This document shows positions 1,185-48,796 of a stretch of DNA of 64,000 nt, one piece after another. The position numbers and the translations under genes are program-made. Below the pieces are notes generated by a model. It saw only the letters and a program-made list of their open reading frames with translations, made no database searches and was not told where the DNA came from. The stretch is from a virus: the IMG/VR virus record IMGVR_UViG_3300021389_000014, positions 1 through 64,000 of that record; one strand, written 5' to 3'. Position 1 is the stretch's first letter. The number at the start of each line of letters is the position of its first letter.

Positions 1185-1210
1185 TTTTCAAAATCCTATA
1201 AAATATGTAG

Positions 1211-1250
1211 ATAAATACATTTAGTTACATTTTACTATGTAAGTATTTAT
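1211..1250. promoter_or_regulatory. Pair of oppositely oriented late promoters: ATAAATA at 1211-1217 (+) and 1244-1250 (-)
   Basis: Match to the T4 gp55 late consensus (T)ATAAATA, between two divergent structural genes. Confidence 0.7.
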
Positions 1251-1271
1251 GGTATAAAATTAGGAGAAAAT

Positions 1272-2123
1272 ATGTCTGAAAATCCACTATCATCACTATA
1301 TCGTTCAAAATCAAATTATGTATCTCTGCCAAGCAGAGGTAGATTTTACACAAGTGGGATAAAATTATCAATAGATGGAGAACTAGGTGTTATGCCTATG
1401 ACCATCAAAGACGAAATAGAGTTAAAATCGCCAGATTCTCTTTTCAATGGAACTGCTTTAATTAATGTTATAAAAAATTGTGCACCAGATATTGTTGATG
1501 TATCTGAAATACCAATTTGCGACATAGACTCTATTCTTTTTGCAATAAAAGCAGCAAGTGAAGAAAATATGGAAATAGAAGTAGAATGCAAATCATGTAA
1601 AGAAATAAACAGCTATAATTTGAATTTAAATCGCTATCTATATACTGCAAAGCAAATACCAGATGATAACACCATTATTCACGAAGATGGAATCGTATAT
1701 TTAAAACCTCATACGCTGGATACCGTGTCAAAGCAAAAAATACAAGATTTTAAAATTACTCAAATGGAAATGCAATTAAAAGATAAACTGTTAGAAGAAA
1801 ACAATAATGAAATTTTAAATGAAATAACAAATAATCTGAAAGTATTGTATAACGAAACAACAGAAATAACTATTGATATTATGGTCGATAGCATATACAA
1901 AATATCAATCCCATCAAAGGATATAGAAGTAGTAGATAAAAATCATATAAAAGAGTGGGTGTTGAATATCAATCGCGATTTAGTCAAAAATATAAACAAA
2001 AAGATAGGATCACTTAATAAAAATGGGATCAATAAAGAAATTGAAATGTCATGCACTAGCTGCGAAAATAAATTTAAATCTGAATTGGAGATAAATCCTT
2101 TAAATTTTTTCACAAACGAGTAA
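1272..2123 (+). CDS. Baseplate hub/tail assembly chaperone, T4 gp26-like
   Basis: N-terminal LPSRG, MTIKDE, two CxxC pairs (CKSC, CTSC), C-terminal NFF; AGGAG SD. Confidence 0.75.
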   Translation: MSENPLSSLYRSKSNYVSLPSRGRFYTSGIKLSIDGELGVMPMTIKDEIELKSPDSLFNGTALINVIKNCAPDIVDVSEIPICDIDSILFAIKAASEENMEIEVECKSCKEINSYNLNLNRYLYTAKQIPDDNTIIHEDGIVYLKPHTLDTVSKQKIQDFKITQMEMQLKDKLLEENNNEILNEITNNLKVLYNETTEITIDIMVDSIYKISIPSKDIEVVDKNHIKEWVLNINRDLVKNINKKIGSLNKNGINKEIEMSCTSCENKFKSELEINPLNFFTNE

Positions 2124-2128
2124 TCAAT

Positions 2129-2344
2129 ATGTACGGAAGTGAATTAAATTCGTTTCTTAATAATATGATTACTCAAAGAGAACAAATAAAGAAAAATATA
2201 ATCGATCTATCTATATATTCCAATGGTTCCATCAGACTCGAAGATATGTATAATCTTACAACTATAGATGTTGCCAATATTGAAAAGACAATATTGGAAA
2301 AAATAAAGATGGATAAAGGAATCAAATCACAACAAATGCTCTAA
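2129..2344 (+). CDS. Small gp51-like hub assembly protein (possibly the -1 frameshift extension of the upstream gene)
   Basis: Size and position after the gp26-like gene; poor SD; in the -1 frame behind a slippery run. Confidence 0.55.
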   Translation: MYGSELNSFLNNMITQREQIKKNIIDLSIYSNGSIRLEDMYNLTTIDVANIEKTILEKIKMDKGIKSQQML

Positions 2345-2362
2345 GATGTAAATCTCAAAAAC

Positions 2363-2595
2363 TCAATTAAGAAGAACTAAAAATAAAATCACTAGAAAAG
2401 TATTTTTTCTAGTGATTTTTGTTTATTGGTTACGTAGTAACCAATGTGCAGAATAACTAAAGAACATTATATCATAATAGCATAAGAGATACTTGTTCAT
2501 TTCATTCACAAGTATCTTTATGAATCATCTATATATTCACTACGCTTATGCTTCGTTCATATATAGATGATTCATTTATTGAGATTCTTAATTGA
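2363..2595. repeat. Cluster of four perfect inverted repeats (15, 9, 10 and 17 bp stems) enclosed by an 11-bp outer inverted repeat
   Basis: Stems 2385-2399/2405-2419, 2425-2433/2437-2445, 2487-2496/2508-2517, 2520-2536/2559-2575; outer 2363-2373/2585-2595. Confidence 0.85.
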
Positions 2596-2644
2596 TTAGA
2601 TATATGATTATATATTTGAATACTGTATAATATACAATATAAGA

Positions 2645-3127
2645 TAATGAATATCATTACCTTGGATTTTGAACACACTTTGCCTTCCGACGGGCAAAGC
2701 ATGTTCAGACTAGTGGTGTTATTACCTCATCATCATCACACTCTATACAGATCGACCATGTAACGTCTGGAAGAGGCGGTTATCCTGTACCTCTTTACGA
2801 TCTAACTTCCCTACTCAGTATTATTATTATAATACCTTTTGTGACAGCGCATCTCATTGTATAAAGCAGTATAGATTACCGTATACGAGAATGTAGGTTC
2901 CAAGTGATCAGGAGAGCCTACTCATTTTCAGGAGAGTCACCCCTGATACTTACAAGATTATATCTTGACAAAAAACGAACTTTCCGGAATTCTTTTCATC
3001 AGAAAGCACAACTTACCATTCCACTGGCTACGAGCATTACCTCGGCTAGATTTCGGCAGATAAAAAACATTATCATTTGCGTTGCTATATGTTTATAAAG
3101 GGTTCTGTGTTAGCCATATTAGTTATA
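2645..3127 (-). ncRNA. Candidate large structured non-coding RNA (~480 nt), family unassigned
   Basis: No credible ORF; own promoter at 3134-3162; several stems closed by G-U pairs only on the minus strand; four GGUAAU motifs. Boundaries approximate. Confidence 0.55.
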
Positions 3128-3133
3128 AGTTAA

Positions 3134-3162
3134 TTTATACCATATATAATGATTCGGGTCAA
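3134..3162 (-). promoter_or_regulatory. Sigma70-type promoter firing into the non-coding region
   Basis: TTGACC-17 nt-TATAAA(T) with TG extension. Confidence 0.7.
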
Positions 3163-3674
3163 GTCCTTTTACACATTTTTTCAAAAGAATTTGCATTTTT
3201 TTCAAAGAAATCTTCAAACTTAGTTAAACGCCAAGTTCCCCAATTTTCGGATTCATAATCTACAAATCTTCCACATTCAAAATCCTGTGGCAACTGATAA
3301 GCAACATAACGACCAATGTAATCAAATTTCATAAAAATTATGTTTACATCTCCCTCGTCAGATACTTCCATAGTTTGGTCTATGAAATTCTCTAAATCCG
3401 GTATACGGTCGGTAGATAACAATTTGTGAAATTGAAATTCCTTATAACGCTTACATTCACAATTAAAATGAATCCAATCGTCAGGAGGAACAATATCACC
3501 CTTGTGTGAGCGTATTTGTCCCTCTGTGAGCGTATTTTTTCTAGAGGAATTTTTACCCCCTATGTATGCGCCCGACGCCTGAATTCTATGAAAACTGTCA
3601 CTATATAAATCTGAAAGATACTTTGCTACTTCCCTCTCAAATCCACTGCCTTTAACTTTACTTTTACTTGCCAT
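3159..3674 (-). CDS. Holliday junction resolvase-like PD-(D/E)xK nuclease
   Basis: KGSGFEREVA...GDI...ECK motifs; start moved to MASKSK (3674), downstream of the terminator and late promoter. Confidence 0.75.
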   Translation of the reverse strand: MASKSKVKGSGFEREVAKYLSDLYSDSFHRIQASGAYIGGKNSSRKNTLTEGQIRSHKGDIVPPDDWIHFNCECKRYKEFQFHKLLSTDRIPDLENFIDQTMEVSDEGDVNIIFMKFDYIGRYVAYQLPQDFECGRFVDYESENWGTWRLTKFEDFFEKNANSFEKMCKRT

Positions 3675-3679
3675 ATAGT

Positions 3680-3687
3680 TATTTATA
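3680..3687 (-). promoter_or_regulatory. Late promoter TATAAATA, 5 nt before the ATG
   Basis: Perfect T4 late consensus. Confidence 0.75.
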
Positions 3688-3695
3688 TAGTTAAT

Positions 3696-3718
3696 AAAAA
3701 AGGGGCACAAAATGCCCC
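3696..3718 (-). terminator. Intrinsic terminator after gp46
   Basis: GGGGCA-TTTTG-TGCCCC followed by a T run on the minus strand. Confidence 0.75.
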
Positions 3719-3725
3719 AATTTTC

Positions 3726-5483
3726 TTAATTTTCTTCTTCTATAGAATATGCAGTAAATCCGTTTTCTTTTGTAACAGTAAGTATGTTATTCACCCTACC
3801 CATCAACTCTTCTCGGTGGGAAATTAGGAATATAGATTTGTTTCTTTCACGACACATGGTTTTTAATAGTTCAAGTGCAGCTTCAACTCCGTTTCCGTCT
3901 AGGCCATTGTCCATCAGTTCGTCAACTGCCATAAAGTTTATACTATAATTCATACTTTCAAAAACATCGCGGAAACTCCAGCTTAGACCAAGAATAAGAC
4001 GATTTCTTTCGCCACGGCTTAAATTGTCGAAATCTAAATCACGTCCAAGTTCTGTAATATCTACATTAAGATCACTTTGGAATTTAACTTCGTGCGGTAA
4101 TCCTAATTTTTCAAGATAATATGCAAGGCGATTGTTAAGATATACTAAATTTTGTTCAATGATTTTTTTACGAATAAAGCTATCTTTATTTGTAAGTAAT
4201 TTTAATAAGAAGTCTTGATGAGTTTTTAAGTCTGTAAGTTCGTTTAGTTTATCCCAACTAATAGGTTTTAACGCAGTGTTTTTAAGTGTTTCAATTTGTT
4301 CACTATACGGGTCTGATGCTTCTGTTTTTTCTTTTATCTTATTTTCAACATAAGAAACTGAATTTTTATGTTCGTAAGCATCATTTATTGAACTATAAAA
4401 GGTAGATGGCTTTTCAATTATACTGGTATGACTATCTAGTTGTTCTGTTAACCCTGAAAGTTCCGTTGCAAGTATTTCTATTTTTTCATTAAGAGATTTT
4501 ATAGATTCACTTTTATCACCAATAAGAGACAGATGATTTTCATCATGCAATTTCTGTCCACAAGCAAAACATTCGTGATTTTGTAGTTTTTCTAATTCAT
4601 TTTCGTATTTAATTTTTCTTTTATCTAGTTCACTAAGTTGTTTTGTTTTCTCGTTGTGTTTAGATTTTAAATCACGATGTTCTGAAACTGACTTTTCATA
4701 GGACGAGAGTAATTCGTGGTTTTTTATTTCAGTTTCAATATCAATTTTCAGCAATTGTTCAAGGGTTTTTGAAAATTCTTCCAAATCGTTTTCTTTGGTA
4801 GTTTCCCAAATACGCTTTCTGCGTTCTAAATCTTTGATACTTTTTTCTATCTGATCATTTGCTTCGCTTACTGCTTTGTTTTTGTATTCTTCTTCTTTTA
4901 TACGGTCCTTTGTATCTTTTATAAGCTCTTTTAAAACAGTAGCCTTTTCACTAAGCTGTGTTATGCCTAATAATTGCTCAATAGTATCACGTTGTTCTGC
5001 TGCTCTCATAGAAAGAAATGGTTCTGTAAATGTATTAAGACATACTAAGTGTTTAAACATAGTATGACTCATTCCTATTAACTTTTCAATTTCTTCTTGA
5101 GTAAGACGATTTTCCCCTTGTTGTTCTTCGGTTTCGTCTTCCATATCGTTTACAAAGAAACGCAAAGCAACAGGCTTGCGTCCGCGTTCAATACGATACT
5201 TATTTCCGTTTACTTTAAATTCTAGTGTAACCAACATATTTTTATTATTGGTTATGTTTACCATATTATCTTTTTTAATATTGGTTAGAGCAGAGCCGTA
5301 TAGTGCAAAAGAAATGGCGTTAAGCATAACACTTTTGCCAACACCATTTCTGCTACCATTTCCGCCCAAATCTAAGTTATTACCGATAACAAGGGTAAGA
5401 TCACTGTCTTCAAAGTTTATGGCTTGGGTAATGTTACCCACGCTCATAAAATTCTTCATTGTGACATTTTTAAAAGTTATCAT
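3726..5483 (-). CDS. gp46: Recombination endonuclease ATPase subunit (gp46/SbcC/Rad50)
   Basis: KNFMSVGN, Walker A NGVGKS, coiled coil with CFAC zinc hook, signature LSRGE, Walker B AVDELMD, ISH. Confidence 0.93.
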   Translation of the reverse strand: MITFKNVTMKNFMSVGNITQAINFEDSDLTLVIGNNLDLGGNGSRNGVGKSVMLNAISFALYGSALTNIKKDNMVNITNNKNMLVTLEFKVNGNKYRIERGRKPVALRFFVNDMEDETEEQQGENRLTQEEIEKLIGMSHTMFKHLVCLNTFTEPFLSMRAAEQRDTIEQLLGITQLSEKATVLKELIKDTKDRIKEEEYKNKAVSEANDQIEKSIKDLERRKRIWETTKENDLEEFSKTLEQLLKIDIETEIKNHELLSSYEKSVSEHRDLKSKHNEKTKQLSELDKRKIKYENELEKLQNHECFACGQKLHDENHLSLIGDKSESIKSLNEKIEILATELSGLTEQLDSHTSIIEKPSTFYSSINDAYEHKNSVSYVENKIKEKTEASDPYSEQIETLKNTALKPISWDKLNELTDLKTHQDFLLKLLTNKDSFIRKKIIEQNLVYLNNRLAYYLEKLGLPHEVKFQSDLNVDITELGRDLDFDNLSRGERNRLILGLSWSFRDVFESMNYSINFMAVDELMDNGLDGNGVEAALELLKTMCRERNKSIFLISHREELMGRVNNILTVTKENGFTAYSIEEEN

Positions 5484-10838: not shown

Positions 10839-13073
10839 ATGTCAATGAGGTCAGTTAACAGATTTCAAAAAAAAGTAAGACAACAATATAATCAAAATTT
10901 GATTAATATGGGGGTCACTATTCCGGCAGGGATATATCTCGGAGAAGTTACACAGAACAGTGATCCAGATTATCCAGATATGAGAGTGAAAGTTCACGTT
11001 TTTCGTTTACTTCCTGCTATAACTCCTCAAAATTCTAAAGAAGTAACCGACGATGAACCAGAATTGGGAAGTATTTGGTGCCAAAGAATGTCACCATTTG
11101 CTGCAAATACTGATGATTATTCTTATGGCATGATGGGTCCACCTCCTGAACCTGGAAATACCGTCATTGTTGCATATACTGGTGATTATGCTAGTGGAAT
11201 TATACTTGGTGTTTTGCCGGACCTTAAAAAGAACCAAGGTTTATTTACTGGCGGACAACCAGCAGCGGAAACGTCAGAAGGTATTAATCCTGCAAGTGAG
11301 CCAGATAGTCAAGGAAATCAAACTGCAATACCAGTTGTAGAAGGAACTGCTCCAGATTTATTAAAAGATGATCCTATGAGAAGACCATCTCAGCGATTTA
11401 ATCCAAGAAATACAAGCATTAGTGCAGCGGGAGGAAATCACGTTACTGTTAGTCCAGGTGATCGTGAAGATGGAACTGGCGCAGGTGTTAGAATGGGAAC
11501 AGGACGAGGTGCTCAATTGTTGATGGACAATCGTAGTGATACGATTTATATGAACAATGCTTCCGGAAATGGTTACATATCTATGGATACAAACGGTAAT
11601 ATAGATATGTATTGTGAGGGAACTTTTAGCGTACACGCGGTTGGTGGATTTAATTTTCACACCGATAACAGTTTTGTAATGCAGGCTGATGATGGAATTA
11701 ATATGAAATCTCTTGGCGGCAGTGGTGTAAAAATACAAGCTGCAGGAGGCAATTTGGATTTATCTATACTTAACGATGTTTATATAACTGCACAAGGTGG
11801 TGAGATACATGCCCTTGCTGGCAGTAATATAATAATGAAAGGTTCAAACATTCATCTGAACGGCCCCGATGCTACGCGTGCCACCCCGCCTACAGTTTCT
11901 TCCCAAATGGGAAACACTGGCGTAACTCAAAGCGTAAGTGGTCGTGTTCCAGAAGCAGAACCGTGGAGAGGGCATACGACATATAGTAGAGATGCTGACC
12001 AATCTGGTAACAGAAGTGAATATTCTACTGCACCTGGAGCGGGGATTGACCCAAGTCGTGTAGGAAATGAATATCCGCCAATACCAGAAAATTCTTCTAA
12101 TTTGGTATTTTGGCAAAACGGAGTAGATAGAAGAATTAGTCAACAATTATTTGATGCGCTTGAAAATATTGCTAGAGAATATGGAAAGGCATTAAAAATA
12201 ACAAAAGGTTATGTTATACCTTCTCGTTCTGGTGGAACTAGCAATGCAGATAATAGTTTGCATATGACTGGCCAAGCAGTAGACATTATTCATGCTGAAG
12301 GTAGACCGGAAATTTTACGAGATGAAGTTTTGCAAATTATAGAACTAGCTAAAAACAATGGTATAGGTGGTATAGGGGTTTACAATGATAGAAGACCAGA
12401 TGCTGCATTTGCAAACGAACTACATTTTGATTTAGGTCGTGAAAGAATTTGGGGAGAATGCGCTGATGGAACATTGCAATACGAATGTTTACCTACCGCT
12501 ATACAAAATGAGGCCAGTGAATTAGGATATGATCCAGAAATTCCGATAGAAGATGCTCGATTTGCAACAGGAAACGGAGCAGTCAATGTAGAAGATATAT
12601 CTGGTAATTCCAACGCAGAAAAATTGTATAATTATTTTGTAGAAGAAAGAGGCTATTCCCCGCAACAAGCTGCTGGTGCAGTTGGTAGTTTGATGGGAGA
12701 AAGTTATGAAAGACTAGACCCAACTGCGGTAAACAGTATAGGTGCAACTGGAATTGCGCAATGGCTTGGTCCAAGAAAAAATAATTTATATGAATTTTCG
12801 GCAAATCCAAACGCATTTGATCCTAATTCTTTTGATAGCACTTCTCCGCTAGACCCATTGTCTTTTGACACGCAATTGCAATTCTTAGATTGGGAATTAA
12901 ATAATGATTCTTACGAATCTAGAACAGACAGTCATATGGTTCAAGCTACCAATGCTGCGCAAGCCGCAGAAATATGGACTAGAATTTATGAGAGGCCATC
13001 GGCTGCGGAAATTTCTTCATCTTTGCCCACTAGACAACAATACGCCAACAACGTGTTAAGTTCCTTTTACTAA
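10839..13073 (+). CDS. Central spike (gp5/VgrG-like) with M15-type peptidase and phage-tail-lysozyme domains
   Basis: OB-fold-like N-terminus (RVKVHV, PEPGNTVIV); Gly-rich beta-helix repeats; SLHMTGQAVD...LHFD; AAGAVGSLMGES...GIAQWLGPR...YERP. Confidence 0.78.
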   Translation: MSMRSVNRFQKKVRQQYNQNLINMGVTIPAGIYLGEVTQNSDPDYPDMRVKVHVFRLLPAITPQNSKEVTDDEPELGSIWCQRMSPFAANTDDYSYGMMGPPPEPGNTVIVAYTGDYASGIILGVLPDLKKNQGLFTGGQPAAETSEGINPASEPDSQGNQTAIPVVEGTAPDLLKDDPMRRPSQRFNPRNTSISAAGGNHVTVSPGDREDGTGAGVRMGTGRGAQLLMDNRSDTIYMNNASGNGYISMDTNGNIDMYCEGTFSVHAVGGFNFHTDNSFVMQADDGINMKSLGGSGVKIQAAGGNLDLSILNDVYITAQGGEIHALAGSNIIMKGSNIHLNGPDATRATPPTVSSQMGNTGVTQSVSGRVPEAEPWRGHTTYSRDADQSGNRSEYSTAPGAGIDPSRVGNEYPPIPENSSNLVFWQNGVDRRISQQLFDALENIAREYGKALKITKGYVIPSRSGGTSNADNSLHMTGQAVDIIHAEGRPEILRDEVLQIIELAKNNGIGGIGVYNDRRPDAAFANELHFDLGRERIWGECADGTLQYECLPTAIQNEASELGYDPEIPIEDARFATGNGAVNVEDISGNSNAEKLYNYFVEERGYSPQQAAGAVGSLMGESYERLDPTAVNSIGATGIAQWLGPRKNNLYEFSANPNAFDPNSFDSTSPLDPLSFDTQLQFLDWELNNDSYESRTDSHMVQATNAAQAAEIWTRIYERPSAAEISSSLPTRQQYANNVLSSFY

Positions 13074-35573: not shown

Positions 35574-35602
35574 TTGACTCCTATGTATTTTTCGTGTATA
35601 AT
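35574..35602 (+). promoter_or_regulatory. Sigma70-type promoter of the replication block
   Basis: TTGACT-17-TATAAT. Confidence 0.8.
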
Positions 35603-35632
35603 ATATCTTACGAATCATACATAGGAGAAGAT

Positions 35633-44275: not shown

Positions 44276-44301
44276 AAAAAGGGGCTTCGGCCCCTTTTTT
44301 T
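44276..44301 (+). terminator. Intrinsic (bidirectional) terminator
   Basis: AAAAAGGGGC-TTCG-GCCCCTTTTT. Confidence 0.88.
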
Positions 44302-44360: not shown

Positions 44361-45542
44361 ATGTCTGATACTGCTGAAAACAAACTTGTAAAGGCCCGTC
44401 TTAAACTGCTGTTTAAGCATCCCTTCTTTGGTCAGATGGCCTTGCGTATGCGCTTGATTGATGTCACCGATGACGGTTGGTGTCCAACTGCCGCAACGGA
44501 TGGTCGCAACTTTTACTATAATGCCGACTTTGTGAATAAACTTGATCAAGACGAAATTGTTTTTCTTGTTGGTCATGAGCTTGGTCACTGTATTTTTGAA
44601 CATTTTTTGCGCGTAGATAAGCGTGACAAAAAGCTTTGGAATATGGCAGGCGATTATGTTATCAATCTTATGCTAGAACGTGAACGAATTGGACGAGTAA
44701 TCACAACTGTTCCTATTCTTTTGGATAACAAATACCGTGGACTTGCTACCGAAGAAGTATATGAAGACCTTGTTAAAAATGGTGCCGAGGAAAAAGATAC
44801 GCTTGACATTCACCTTGAAATTGGTGGTTCTGGCGAAGACGATGAAGAAGGCAATGGCGACAAAGATGGAAAAGGCAAAAAGCCAACTATCTCTGCCGAA
44901 GATGCGAAATCAATTTCTGATGATATTCGCCAAGCTGTTTTGCAAGCCGCGTCTGCATCTGCTGGTAATCTACCATCCGAGGTAAAGCGTATTATCAAAA
45001 ATCTTACCGAGTCTAAGATGGATTGGCGTCAGCATATTCGTTCATCCATTGAAAGTAGCATTAAGAGTGACTTTTCTTGGATGCGTCCTAACCGCAAAGG
45101 CTGGCATATGTCGGCTATCCTTCCTGGAATGACCCCAGGTCAAGAGATTGAGGTTGCTATTGGTATTGACACAAGTGGTTCTATTTCACAGAAAACACTT
45201 GAAGATTTTCTTGGTGAAGTAAACGGTATCATGGAGCAGTTTGAGCAATATACTATTCGTATTTGGCAATTTGATACCCGTGTATATGGCTACGAAAAGT
45301 TCACACATGATGACGGTAAGGATATTCGCGAATATGAAATTCGCGGAGGTGGTGGCACCGACTTCATGGCCAACTGGGAATACATGAAAAACAATGACAT
45401 TGACCCAAAACAGTTTATCATGTTTACAGACATGATGCCTTGGAATAGCTGGGGTGATCCGAATTACTGCGATACGCTATTTGTTGCACATAGCACAAAA
45501 ACCATTCAAGCACCATTTGGAACCACGGTATACTATGAATAA
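44361..45542 (+). CDS. Zincin-like metallopeptidase + vWA domain protein (DUF2201 type), MoxR partner
   Basis: TAATDG, HELGH (HExxH), WNMAGDYVIN; MIDAS DTSGS, GGGGTDF, FTD. Confidence 0.88.
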   Translation: MSDTAENKLVKARLKLLFKHPFFGQMALRMRLIDVTDDGWCPTAATDGRNFYYNADFVNKLDQDEIVFLVGHELGHCIFEHFLRVDKRDKKLWNMAGDYVINLMLERERIGRVITTVPILLDNKYRGLATEEVYEDLVKNGAEEKDTLDIHLEIGGSGEDDEEGNGDKDGKGKKPTISAEDAKSISDDIRQAVLQAASASAGNLPSEVKRIIKNLTESKMDWRQHIRSSIESSIKSDFSWMRPNRKGWHMSAILPGMTPGQEIEVAIGIDTSGSISQKTLEDFLGEVNGIMEQFEQYTIRIWQFDTRVYGYEKFTHDDGKDIREYEIRGGGGTDFMANWEYMKNNDIDPKQFIMFTDMMPWNSWGDPNYCDTLFVAHSTKTIQAPFGTTVYYE

Positions 45543-45544
45543 TT

Positions 45545-45568
45545 TATGGCACTTCGGTGCCATAAATA
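45545..45568 (+). terminator. UUCG hairpin whose 3' arm merges with a late promoter (ATAAATA 45562-45568)
   Basis: TTATGGCAC-TTCG-GTGCCATAA-ATA. Confidence 0.65.
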
Positions 45569-48155: not shown

Positions 48156-48796
48156 CGATAATAAAACCCCAGCCTAGTATTGGGCAAGTTACTATCACTG
48201 TTATCTTTATTTTCAATATACTGCCAATCTTTATAAGATTGGTGGTATTTTTTATTCTCCCATACGGGTATTATCTCAGTTGCATTTTCTGGAAAATCTG
48301 ATCCATGACGTAAATGAATTTCTATTATTTTATTTCCTATAAATTCTATGTTTAATTCTTTAGAATCTATTTCTTCTATAAAATCTGGTAATTTTATATT
48401 TGGTATTTGGATTTTTTTCCAACGATTAAATTGATAGAGTGGGTCGTCGTCTTCCCTAAATCCCTGACATGCAAATATAGGGGTCCATTTTTTATTTTTG
48501 TTAATAAAATCAATGCTTAAATGATTTCCGTAAAATCGTTCACACCAGAAATACCCTGCTGGTATTATAGTATCCGTGTTATTATTAAAAAATACAAAAG
48601 ATGCACCGACTCCCATACCGCCAAGATTATATATTGGTCTAACACAGTATTCTCCGGAATTTGACACATCTGTTCCGCTTGGCCCACAATCATACCCCAA
48701 TCTTAAACTTAATTCTAATTTATTGAATGTCCATCTAAGATTGGGGTATTTATTCCAAGCTTGGTAATCTTCTTTTATTTTTTCTTCGGGACGCAA
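48152..48796 (-). CDS. Hypothetical protein, possible ATP-grasp fold
   Basis: VRPIYNLGGMGVGA, FWCERF.G.HLSID, NIEFIG.KIIEIHLR pattern. Confidence 0.5.
   Translation of the reverse strand: MRPEEKIKEDYQAWNKYPNLRWTFNKLELSLRLGYDCGPSGTDVSNSGEYCVRPIYNLGGMGVGASFVFFNNNTDTIIPAGYFWCERFYGNHLSIDFINKNKKWTPIFACQGFREDDDPLYQFNRWKKIQIPNIKLPDFIEEIDSKELNIEFIGNKIIEIHLRHGSDFPENATEIIPVWENKKYHQSYKDWQYIENKDNSDSNLPNTRLGFYYR

What the first reader, a model, noticed from the sequence alone, without database searches (positions are those of the whole stretch)
2363..2595. Nested DNA-hairpin cluster with cGNAg loops at the RNA's 3' end: candidate RNA-primed replication origin
Seen: four perfect AT-rich inverted repeats (15, 9, 10, 17 bp) enclosed by an 11-bp outer repeat, adjacent to a very AT-rich stretch (2596-2660). 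Loops are C-GTA-G (2433-2437) and, on the minus strand, GAATGAAATGA and GAACGAAGCATAAGCGTAGTGA (containing CGAAG and CGTAG). Established: cGNAg triloops are exceptionally stable in single-stranded DNA, and both T4 origins and ColE1 use a transcript-formed R-loop as primer. The core stems lack G-U pairs, unlike the RNA region. Inference: promoter, then structured RNA, then AT-rich unwinding element, then ssDNA hairpins may form one unit, an origin primed by a folded RNA or a packaging/terminus signal. The first hairpin may simply be a terminator for convergent transcription.
Basis: partly seen in the sequence, partly recalled or inferred. Interest (0 to 1): 0.8.

Follow-up and report, generated by a model that had tools for sequence, protein, structure and literature searches.

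The report
Hairpin tail of a phage RNA gene
The hairpin cluster is real and conserved, and is most likely the 3' tail plus a two-way terminator of a new, widespread non-coding RNA gene of giant T4-like marine phages; a role as a replication start site is not excluded but has no direct support.

Summary
Observation confirmed.

In four relatives the hairpins persist while their stem sequences change: 23 of 32 pairs change on both sides. They lie 3' of a covariation-supported minus-strand RNA (core 2940->2656), found behind the same PDDEXK nuclease gene in 45 of 160 related loci.
- hp1 (2385-2419) is a bidirectional intrinsic terminator.
- hp3 and hp4 carry a family-wide, strictly strand-specific apex of tandem G.A pairs plus a GAA/GNNA loop: 36 sense, 0 antisense hits in 1.55 Mb.
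- Their stems are Watson-Crick only, whereas about 12.6% of core pairs are G.U. The apex loops fit DNA mini-hairpin rules better than GNRA rules.

Points that do not favour an origin:
- The outer repeat, the hp2 cGNAg loop and much of the A+T stretch are not conserved.
- GC skew in a 318-kb relative follows the coding strand only.
- No MotA box is present.

That relative carries four copies of the RNA, each with its own hairpin tail.

Best reading: RNA 3' tail plus terminator (0.55). An ssDNA origin or priming signal is about 0.2.

This scan has already noted the same twin-hairpin tail on other jumbo-phage DNA.

The parts
2129..2344 (+). gp51-like 71-aa ORF, last gene of the convergent plus-strand unit. 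The gp26-like baseplate hub gene lies upstream at 1272-2123.
   Evidence: ORF list. The hub gene matches PF12322 and phrog_150. The same gene order is seen in L005, L096 and L006.
2363..2373 (.). Left arm of the 11-bp outer inverted repeat; the partner arm is 2585-2595. Lineage-specific and probably without function.
   Evidence: p about 0.009 in the window, but 7 bp or less (p > 0.5) in L085, L005, L096 and L006. This arm lies beyond the minus-strand terminator.
2385..2419 (.). hp1: bidirectional intrinsic terminator, a 15-bp stem with T runs after it on both strands.
   Evidence: The terminator scan hits both strands. A perfect hairpin with U runs sits at the same place in four relatives, with unrelated stem sequences in L096 and L006.
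2425..2445 (.). hp2: 9-bp palindrome ATTGGTTAC/GTAACCAAT. Loop is GTA on the plus strand and UAC on the minus strand.
   Evidence: The hairpin is kept in four relatives, with compensatory G-C to A-T in L085. Loops vary (TTC, CCTACGA, TATA, TAAA on the minus strand), so cGNAg is not conserved.
2487..2517 (-). hp3: 10-bp stem capped by GA / AU / GAA / AU / GA, that is tandem G.A pairs, two base pairs and a GAA triloop.
   Evidence: The Y-R pair under the triloop covaries: U-A in the window, C-G in L005. The stem and cap seen here recur in G001 copy A.
2520..2575 (-). hp4: 17-bp A+T-rich stem with an extended G.A-rich apex (GA-AC-GAA-GC-AUAA-GC-GUA-GU-GA).
   Evidence: The lower stem sequence differs in every relative yet is perfect in each; 15 of 19 pairs of the helix that holds it change on both sides. 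The apex architecture is conserved, with GAAA in L005 and GUAA in L085.
2576..2655 (-).
   Evidence: 84.6% A+T. Sequence and length vary, and 36 positions are missing in L085.
2656..2940 (-). Conserved core of the structured non-coding RNA.
   Evidence: 23-sequence alignment A3: 37 pairs, 28 with compensatory changes, about 12.6% G.U cells in the minus orientation. nhmmer finds it in 45 of 160 loci. No Rfam match.
2941..3133 (-). More variable 5' part of the RNA unit. It includes the conserved word CACAGAACCC and TAACYAA direct repeats at about 3108-3133.
   Evidence: Alignment. The repeats are evenly spaced at 11 nt in L005 (5 copies), L006 and L064.
3134..3162 (-). Sigma-70-type promoter TTGACC-17-TATAAA. 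Its -35 hexamer overlaps the stop codon of the PDDEXK gene.
   Evidence: Sequence. TTGAC is kept in L085, L005, L096 and L006. Each paralogous copy in G001 has its own TTGACx-17 promoter-like site.
3159..3674 (-). PDDEXK_15 (PF24608) putative endonuclease gene, 171 aa, followed upstream by gp46/gp47/gp55 homologues.

Best explanation
The cluster is the 3' end of a minus-strand transcription unit of about 750 nt. The unit has its own sigma-70-type promoter (3162-3134). It encodes a structured RNA (about 3127 to 2656), then an A/U-rich linker, then two adjacent hairpins (hp4, hp3), then a small palindromic hairpin (hp2). It ends at hp1.

hp1 is an intrinsic terminator that works in both directions, so it also ends the convergent gp26/gp51 late mRNA.

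The tips of hp4 and hp3 are built from tandem G.A pairs and a GAA-type loop. They are a dedicated, strand-specific module that travels with this RNA family. I infer that they act in the transcript, as a recognition site for a phage or host protein and/or as a 3'-end forming and protecting structure.

Shown: the anatomy, conservation, compensatory change, strand specificity and terminator features. Inferred: that the hairpins act as RNA, and what binds them.
For: 1. The RNA core upstream is a genuine minus-strand RNA: 28 of 37 pairs have compensatory changes, and many G.U pairs would be A.C on the other strand.
2. hp4, hp3 and hp2 lie between that core and a terminator with a U run in the RNA's direction. 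The order is the same in the window, L085, L005, L096 and L006. No terminator-like site was called in the gap other than hp1.
3. The stems are maintained by compensation: 23 of 32 pairs change on both sides, 90% of cells are paired, 0 of 500 shuffles reach this, and slid controls give 29-48%.
4. The G.A/GAA cap is found only on the RNA-sense strand: 36 sense, 0 antisense and 4 reversed-sequence control hits in 1.55 Mb. Most sense hits lie a few hundred nt behind the PDDEXK gene end.
5. In L077 a HAD-like gene starts about 14 nt after the twin hairpins on the same strand. There the hairpins must be transcribed.
6. Each of the four RNA copies in the 318-kb relative G001 has its own promoter-like site and its own twin-hairpin tail.
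7. The purine-rich loops (GAA, GAAA, GUAA) and tandem G.A pairs are ordinary RNA building blocks (established knowledge).
Against: 1. The tail stems have essentially no G.U: 0 in about 250 pairs of five close relatives, and nothing above background when G.U is allowed. The RNA core has about 12.6%.
2. The family's apex loops include GAUA, GUUA and GUCA. These break the RNA GNRA rule but fit the DNA mini-hairpin rule GCGNAGC/GCGNNAGC (PMC13037366).
3. Between the window and L085 the RNA gene (2656-3162) is 96-99% identical, but the tail only 70-87%. The tail therefore evolves, or is exchanged, apart from the RNA.
4. No transcript data exist, so the 3' end of the RNA is not mapped.
Confidence: 0.55

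Rival explanations
1. Replication origin or priming signal. Transcription from the promoter makes the folded RNA. An RNA-DNA hybrid forms in the A+T-rich spacer. The displaced non-template strand has the RNA's sequence and folds into very stable DNA mini-hairpins. These keep the bubble open and/or are read by the phage primase-helicase loader. Several copies per genome would then be several origins.
For: - Stems are Watson-Crick only, in contrast with the G.U-rich RNA core.
- Apex loops in the family are GAA, GATA, GTTA, GCAA, GAAA and GTCA closed by C-G. They include exact GCGAAGC, GCGTTAGC and GCGATAGC. The same words occur at the G4, St-1 and alpha3 complementary-strand origins and at RSF1010 ssiA (PMC13037366).
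- The signal is strictly on one strand.
- An A+T-rich spacer is always present.
- There are four copies in a 318-kb relative, and T4 has at least five origins (PMC3016281).
- 11-nt evenly spaced direct repeats follow the early-type promoter in this copy's lineage. This recalls T4 oriE, which has an early promoter and 12-nt iterons (PMC3016281).
- The locus sits where transcription changes strand.
Against: - GC skew in G001 follows the coding strand. It turns at about 40, 195, 245 and 285-305 kb, not at the RNA copies at 12, 120, 252 and 315 kb.
- The spacer is not conserved, and 36 of its positions are missing in L085.
- The window's own caps are not canonical mini-hairpins: U-GAA-A, and single C-G closures in CGAAG and CGTAG.
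- No MotA box is present.
- The promoter is about 470 nt from the A+T stretch, whereas T4 oriF/oriG need only about 100 bp (PMC3016281).
- The direct repeats are absent from the other three copies in G001.
- A+U-rich hybrids are weak (established knowledge).
- Everything here is equally present in the RNA.
Confidence: 0.2
2. Nothing more than a stack of terminator or stabiliser hairpins between convergent transcription units. They fold in both RNAs, which would explain the Watson-Crick-only stems, and have no specific recognition role.
For: - hp1 scores as a terminator on both strands.
- The cluster lies exactly between convergent genes.
- Perfect palindromes fold equally on both strands: -66.0 versus -63.8 kcal/mol.
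- Other terminators of this phage are also perfect palindromes with A/T flanks, at 44276, 45542 and 55715.
Against: - hp2, hp3 and hp4 have no U run on either strand.
- The caps are conserved in sequence and strand, whereas plain terminators drift.
- Relatives keep the twin hairpins where the next gene is on the same strand and no convergent transcription exists (L077, G001 copy B).
Confidence: 0.1
3. Double-stranded DNA palindromes that extrude as cruciforms and are cut by the neighbouring PDDEXK resolvase-like nuclease and gp46/gp47. This would give a programmed break that starts recombination-dependent replication or cassette exchange.
For: - These are the two longest perfect palindromes of the 64-kb window.
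- They sit next to a PDDEXK/RusA-like gene and SbcCD-like genes.
- Identity between the window and L085 breaks sharply at the spacer/tail (99% to 70%), as expected at a recombination joint.
Against: - The loops of 11 and 22 nt in hp3 and hp4 disfavour cruciform extrusion (established knowledge).
- The strand-specific caps have no meaning in a cruciform.
- The other RNA copies in G001 have tails but no nuclease gene was detected next to them.
Confidence: 0.05
4. A miniature inverted-repeat mobile element of 233 bp bounded by the 11-bp repeats.
For: The terminal 11-bp inverted repeat is statistically unusual.
Against: - It is single copy in the 74-kb record.
- The repeat is not conserved in relatives although the interior is.
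- No target duplication is seen.
- The interior belongs to a larger conserved unit.
Confidence: 0.02

Closest known systems
3' hairpin tails and bidirectional Rho-independent terminators of bacterial and phage non-coding RNA genes
   Same: A stem-loop with U runs on both strands lies between convergent units. Extra hairpins and an A/U-rich linker sit upstream of the terminator, inside the transcript.
   Different: Two of the hairpins carry a conserved tandem-G.A/GAA cap that is kept across a whole phage family. Stems are long, A+T-rich and strictly Watson-Crick.
DNA mini-hairpins GCGNAGC/GCGNNAGC at single-strand initiation sites (G4, St-1 and alpha3 complementary-strand origins; RSF1010 ssiA; PMC13037366)
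   Same: A sheared G.A pair closes GAA/GNNA loops on C-G pairs, with strand specificity. Relatives carry the exact words GCGAAGC, GCGTTAGC and GCGATAGC.
   Different: Those sites act on packaged single-stranded DNA or plasmid ssDNA. Here the genome is double-stranded and the motif lies inside a transcription unit. The window's own caps (U-GAA-A, CGAAG, CGTAG) do not meet the two-G-C-pair consensus.
T4 oriF/oriG and oriE (PMC3016281)
   Same: A promoter-driven transcript runs into an A+T-rich stretch. There are several copies per genome, and the locus is at a switch of transcribed strand. An early-type promoter with evenly spaced direct repeats recalls oriE.
   Different: There is no MotA box. 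About 470 nt of conserved folded RNA lie between the promoter and the A+T stretch. T4 origins have no hairpin module. No sequence similarity.
ColE1 RNA II preprimer with downstream primosome assembly site
   Same: A folded RNA of about 500 nt with its own promoter is followed by hairpin-forming DNA.
   Different: No antisense RNA I equivalent and no G-rich hybrid anchor were seen. The setting is a phage, not a plasmid. The resemblance is recalled, not tested.
Phage processive antitermination RNAs (lambda nut boxB, HK022 put)
   Same: Small adjacent hairpins with purine-rich GNRA-like loops act in the nascent transcript; put is a pair of stem-loops.
   Different: No sequence or size match. Here the hairpins follow a large RNA and, in this clade, precede a strong terminator. 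This is a lead only.
GOLLD / ROOL / Polynucleobacter-1 (large or orphan structured RNAs, partly phage-borne)
   Same: A large, ornate, phage-borne RNA of unknown function.
   Different: No Rfam model matches the window or 11 relatives. RF01718 finds nothing at E of 10 or less in three records.

Membership tests
Bidirectional intrinsic terminator (hp1) | Stable stem-loop immediately followed by a T/U run, on both strands | tested here: met
   plus strand 2385-2419 with TGTTTATTGG, minus strand 2419-2385 with ATTTTTAGTT. T runs are present on both sides in four relatives.
Bidirectional intrinsic terminator (hp2, hp3, hp4) | T/U run after the stem | tested here: not met
   No run of 5 or more T follows these stems on either strand.
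Conserved RNA/ssDNA secondary structure | Pairs kept by compensatory changes across relatives | tested here: met
   23 of 32 pairs change on both sides, 90.4% of cells are paired, 0 of 500 shuffles reach this, and slid controls give 29-48%.
DNA mini-hairpin (GCGNAGC / GCGNNAGC) | Two G-C pairs closing a GNA or GNNA loop with a sheared G.A pair | tested here: inconclusive
   The window has U-GAA-A (hp3) and CGAAG/CGTAG with a single C-G (hp4), so the consensus is not met. Relatives carry exact GCGAAGC, GCGTTAGC, GCGATAGC and GCGCAAGC.
DNA mini-hairpin at an initiation site | Primer synthesis or primase binding at the hairpin | not testable with these tools
   Needs biochemistry or RNA-DNA junction mapping.
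T4 oriF/oriG-type origin | MotA-dependent middle promoter | tested here: not met
   No MotA box (WWWTGCTTNA) and no late TATAAATA in 2000-3400 on either strand. The promoter is TTGACC-17-TATAAA.
T4 oriF/oriG-type origin | A+T-rich unwinding element just downstream of the promoter, within about 100 bp | tested here: not met
   The A+T-rich stretch lies about 470 nt from the promoter and is partly deleted in L085.
T4 oriF/oriG-type origin | Persistent R-loop used as leading-strand primer | not testable with these tools
   No RNA or replication data; no RNA run was listed.
Replication origin in general | Turn of cumulative GC skew at the locus | tested here: not met
   In G001 (318 kb) the skew follows the coding strand and turns elsewhere. 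This is a weak test for T4-like phages.
Any Rfam 15 family, including Polynucleobacter-1 (RF01718) | Covariance-model match | tested here: not met
MITE-like mobile element | Terminal inverted repeats conserved, with multiple copies | tested here: not met
   Single copy in the 74-kb record. The repeat is not conserved.

The most novel reading that the evidence does not exclude
The twin G.A-capped hairpins are single-stranded-DNA signals, not RNA ones. Transcription of the large RNA opens the A+T-rich spacer, and the displaced strand snaps into DNA mini-hairpins that recruit the phage priming machinery. Each RNA-plus-hairpin unit would then be one of several RNA-primed origins of giant T4-like phages. 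That would make it a conserved, sequence-recognisable origin module for phages whose origins are so far unknown.
Probability: 0.2. Interest if true: 0.85.

Novelty: new variant of a known kind. Interest (0 to 1): 0.5.

Why it matters
The cluster is not a curiosity of one sequence. It is the local, elaborated form of a two-hairpin module that accompanies an uncatalogued large RNA in many uncultured jumbo T4-like phages of sea and lake water.

The module combines three unusual properties: strict strand specificity, strictly Watson-Crick stems next to a G.U-rich RNA, and loop words that obey DNA rather than RNA hairpin rules.

If it acts as RNA, it defines a new protein-recognition or 3'-end motif. 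If it acts as DNA, it would be the first recognisable origin signature for this large phage group. Either way it gives a short, searchable marker for finding and orienting the RNA genes.

Tried and rejected
Searches that found nothing:
- Rfam at gathering and E-value thresholds on the window and 11 relatives.
- RF01718, suggested by earlier notes: no match at E of 10 or less in G000, G001 and G002.
- tRNA/tmRNA scan.
- blastn of 1200-4000 against cultured phages.
- The closest cultured phages by the PDDEXK protein, SCTP-2 and PA5oct (40-43% aa), have no homologue of the RNA or the cap motif at that locus.

Tools and data limits:
Relatives were fetched with the search for related loci instead.
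- Sequencing runs: no RNA holder is listed. The laid runs are DNA contigs only, so transcript ends and expression could not be examined.

Tests that gave no support:
- GC skew of a 318-kb relative: no turn at the copies.
- T4 late promoter and MotA box: none in the gap.
- Plus-strand TGTATAAT at 2623-2631: lost in L085, so not a conserved promoter.
- A 41-codon ORF starting at the AUG after CCAAGGUA in the spacer: destroyed in L085, rejected.
- Simple GNA/GNNA hairpins are not enriched in the window or in G001, so the signal is the capped hairpin, not GNA loops in general.
- The outer repeat as an element boundary: not conserved.
- The neighbours of the other three RNA copies in G001 gave no telling annotation, apart from a CCA-adding enzyme gene after copy B.

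Full report
SETTING

The window is the first 64 kb of a 73,957-bp IMG/VR virus record, estimated about 20% complete. Gene content is T4-like.
- Plus strand: a gp26-type baseplate hub (1272-2123) and a 71-aa gp51-like ORF (2129-2344).
- Minus strand: a PDDEXK_15 putative endonuclease (3159-3674) and homologues of gp46, gp47 and gp55.

The finding lies in the only long gene-free gap, 2345-3158, between these convergent blocks.

The four perfect inverted repeats (15, 9, 10 and 17 bp), their loops, the 11-bp outer repeat and the A+T-rich stretch are exactly as described.
- Either strand of 2355-2605 folds 8 to 10 standard deviations better than shuffled sequence.
- The window has 17 perfect hairpins with stems of 10 bp or more, against 0-6 in shuffles. 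The two longest are here.

WHAT LIES NEXT TO IT

I aligned homologues of the PDDEXK protein and used the alignment to fetch 160 related loci.
- Iterated nhmmer finds a homologous non-coding element directly behind that gene in 45 of them.
- A 23-sequence alignment of its core (window 2940->2640, minus strand) gives 37 consensus pairs, 28 with compensatory changes. About 12.6% of cells are G.U or U.G in this orientation. Those cells would be A.C on the other strand.

So a structured RNA is encoded on the minus strand, as the same reader proposed in a separate note.
- It has a TTGACC-17-TATAAA promoter whose -35 hexamer overlaps the stop codon of the nuclease gene. TTGAC is kept in relatives.
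- No Rfam model matches the window or 11 relatives. Polynucleobacter-1, which earlier notes of this scan named as a sister, finds nothing in three records.

THE CLUSTER IN RELATIVES

Four relatives keep the same order in the RNA's direction: core, A/U-rich spacer, hp4, hp3, linker, hp2, hp1, U run. They are L085 (85% identical over the gap), L005, L096 and L006.

hp1: its stem sequence is replaced outright in L096 and L006, yet it is perfect in each and has T runs on both sides. The terminator scan scores it on both strands. hp1 is therefore a bidirectional intrinsic terminator for the RNA unit and for the gp26/gp51 mRNA.

hp4: the lower stem differs in every relative and is perfect in each.

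hp3: the stem and cap are conserved.

Formal count on six sequences:
- 23 of 32 pairs change on both sides.
- 90.4% of cells are paired. The exceptions come mostly from one row out of register.
- No shuffle of 500 reaches this.
- Slid controls give 29-48% paired.

THE CAPS

Read on the minus strand, the 11-nt 'loop' of hp3 is GA-AU-GAA-AU-GA. That is tandem G.A pairs, two base pairs and a GAA triloop.
- The inner pair covaries: U-A here, C-G in L005.
- hp4 carries an extended version, with GAAA in L005 and GUAA in L085.
- More distant loci (L163, L164, L115, L047, L117, L077) have a capped hairpin of the same build followed at once by a second small hairpin.

I searched strictly for stem of 5 or more, GA, 2-5 bp, 3-4-nt loop, GA, stem. 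This finds 36 sites on the RNA-sense strand of the 160 loci (1.55 Mb), none on the other strand, and 4 in reversed-sequence controls. Most sense hits lie a few hundred nt behind the nuclease gene.

Plain GNA/GNNA hairpins are not enriched.

WHAT IS NOT CONSERVED

- The outer 11-bp repeat: 7 bp or less in all four relatives.
- The cGTAg loop of hp2.
- The plus-strand TGTATAAT.
- Much of the A+T stretch: 36 positions are missing in L085.

The 'nesting' is therefore a local accident, and the spacer is constrained in composition at most.

AN ODD PROPERTY THAT IS REAL

The tail stems are Watson-Crick only.
- In about 250 pairs of five close relatives there is no G.U on the RNA strand. There is one C.A.
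- Allowing G.U in the motif search adds nothing above background.
- The neighbouring RNA core has about one G.U in eight pairs.

The family's apex loops are GAA, GATA, GTTA, GCAA, GAAA and GTCA on C-G closures. Half of these break the GNRA rule of RNA tetraloops. All fit the DNA mini-hairpin rule GCGNAGC/GCGNNAGC. That rule is known from the G4, St-1 and alpha3 complementary-strand origins and from RSF1010 ssiA (PMC13037366).

Against it, the window's own caps do not meet that consensus, and every letter is also present in the transcript.

TESTS OF THE ORIGIN IDEA

I fetched the whole 317,722-bp record of L005 (G001, 85% complete).
- Its GC and AT skews follow the coding strand bin by bin. They turn at about 40, 195, 245 and 285-305 kb.
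- It carries four copies of the RNA, at 12, 120, 252 and 315 kb. Each is co-oriented with local genes and has its own TTGACx-17 promoter-like site and its own twin-hairpin tail with perfect stems. None sits at a skew turn.
- The multiple copies recall T4's five or more origins (PMC3016281). They fit a multi-copy RNA gene equally well.
- There is no MotA box or late promoter in the gap.
- The A+T stretch is about 470 nt from the promoter, unlike the compact T4 oriF/oriG of about 100 bp.
- The PDDEXK-linked copy has evenly spaced 11-nt direct repeats just after the promoter: five in L005, weaker in the window. This is reminiscent of T4 oriE, but the other three copies lack them.
- No RNA run holds the sequence, and only DNA contigs could be laid. 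Expression, transcript ends and replication starts remain unmeasured.

EVIDENCE THAT THE TAIL IS TRANSCRIBED

- In all five close sequences the only terminator-like site called in the RNA's direction lies after the hairpins.
- In L077 a HAD-like gene begins about 14 nt after the twin hairpins on the same strand, which leaves no room for a separate promoter.

A FURTHER DETAIL

Between the window and L085 the RNA gene (2656-3162) is 96-99% identical. The flanking genes are 59% and 77% identical, and the tail 70-87%. The RNA gene has evidently been exchanged, or conserved, as a cassette whose downstream edge is the spacer. The tail is a separable module and perhaps a recombination joint.

VERDICT

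The cluster is the 3' tail of a new, widespread phage RNA unit plus a two-way terminator. The outer repeat and the hp2 loop are incidental. The twin capped hairpins are the meaningful part.

I put 0.55 on action in the transcript, as a recognition, processing or 3'-end structure. The rest goes to plain termination, cruciform/recombination and mobile-element readings.

The same twin-hairpin tail has already been noted several times by this scan on other jumbo-phage DNA. Here I re-derived its strand specificity, Watson-Crick rule, loop spectrum and multi-copy nature independently. I did not confirm the claimed kinship with Polynucleobacter-1.

Noticed in passing
G001 (record of L005): 12.1-12.45 kb (-), 120.3-120.7 kb (+), 251.6-252.4 kb (+), 314.9-315.1 kb (-): The large RNA is multi-copy. 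There are four paralogous copies in one 318-kb genome, each in its own gene-free gap with its own promoter-like site and twin-hairpin tail. Only one copy is seen in the 74-kb record of the window.
   Followed up: partly
window 3108-3133 (minus strand); L005:6576-6630; L006:6568-6600; L064:6543-6575: Evenly spaced 11-nt direct repeats (TTTAACTAAYA type; five in L005) sit right after the RNA promoter. They are iteron-like, but absent from the other three copies in G001.
   Followed up: partly
window 2656-3162 versus L085: The RNA gene is 96-99% identical between two phages whose flanking genes are only 59-77% identical. The identity breaks sharply at the stop codon of the nuclease gene and at the A+T spacer. 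This looks like exchange of the RNA gene as a cassette.
   Followed up: partly
G001:12024-12050 (+): A G.A/GAA-capped hairpin lies on the opposite strand, about 75 nt beyond the tail of RNA copy A. It is the only antisense-oriented example seen near a copy.
   Followed up: no
L171:1103-1450 and 1490-2542 (G001 121.1-122.5 kb): A tRNA nucleotidyltransferase (CCA-adding enzyme) gene just downstream of RNA copy B appears split into two ORFs.
   Followed up: no
window 2100-3300, public runs: About twenty studies of sea, estuary, aquaculture, sediment and fresh water hold 7-21% of the 31-letter words of this stretch. The contigs that were laid cover mainly the RNA part: a 260-nt contig identical over 2850-3109, and a 781-nt contig over 2644-3297.
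   Followed up: partly
L077:6818-6900: In this distant relative the twin hairpins are followed within about 14 nt by a same-strand gene with a HAD-type DMDGVL motif. No terminator lies between them.
   Followed up: no
window 48692-48749, 35578-35627, 11574-11611: Other long perfect inverted repeats (14, 11 and 11 bp) with large loops of 16-30 nt occur elsewhere in the window. Typical UUCG-loop bidirectional terminators are at 44276-44299 and 45542-45567.
   Followed up: no
L181 (Pseudomonas phage PA5oct, NC_071039.1 75.7-77.2 kb): Upstream of the PA5oct homologue of the PDDEXK gene lies about 1.5 kb annotated only with 38-50-codon hypothetical ORFs, next to a baseplate hub gene. It has no similarity to the RNA here but may be a non-coding region.
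   Followed up: no
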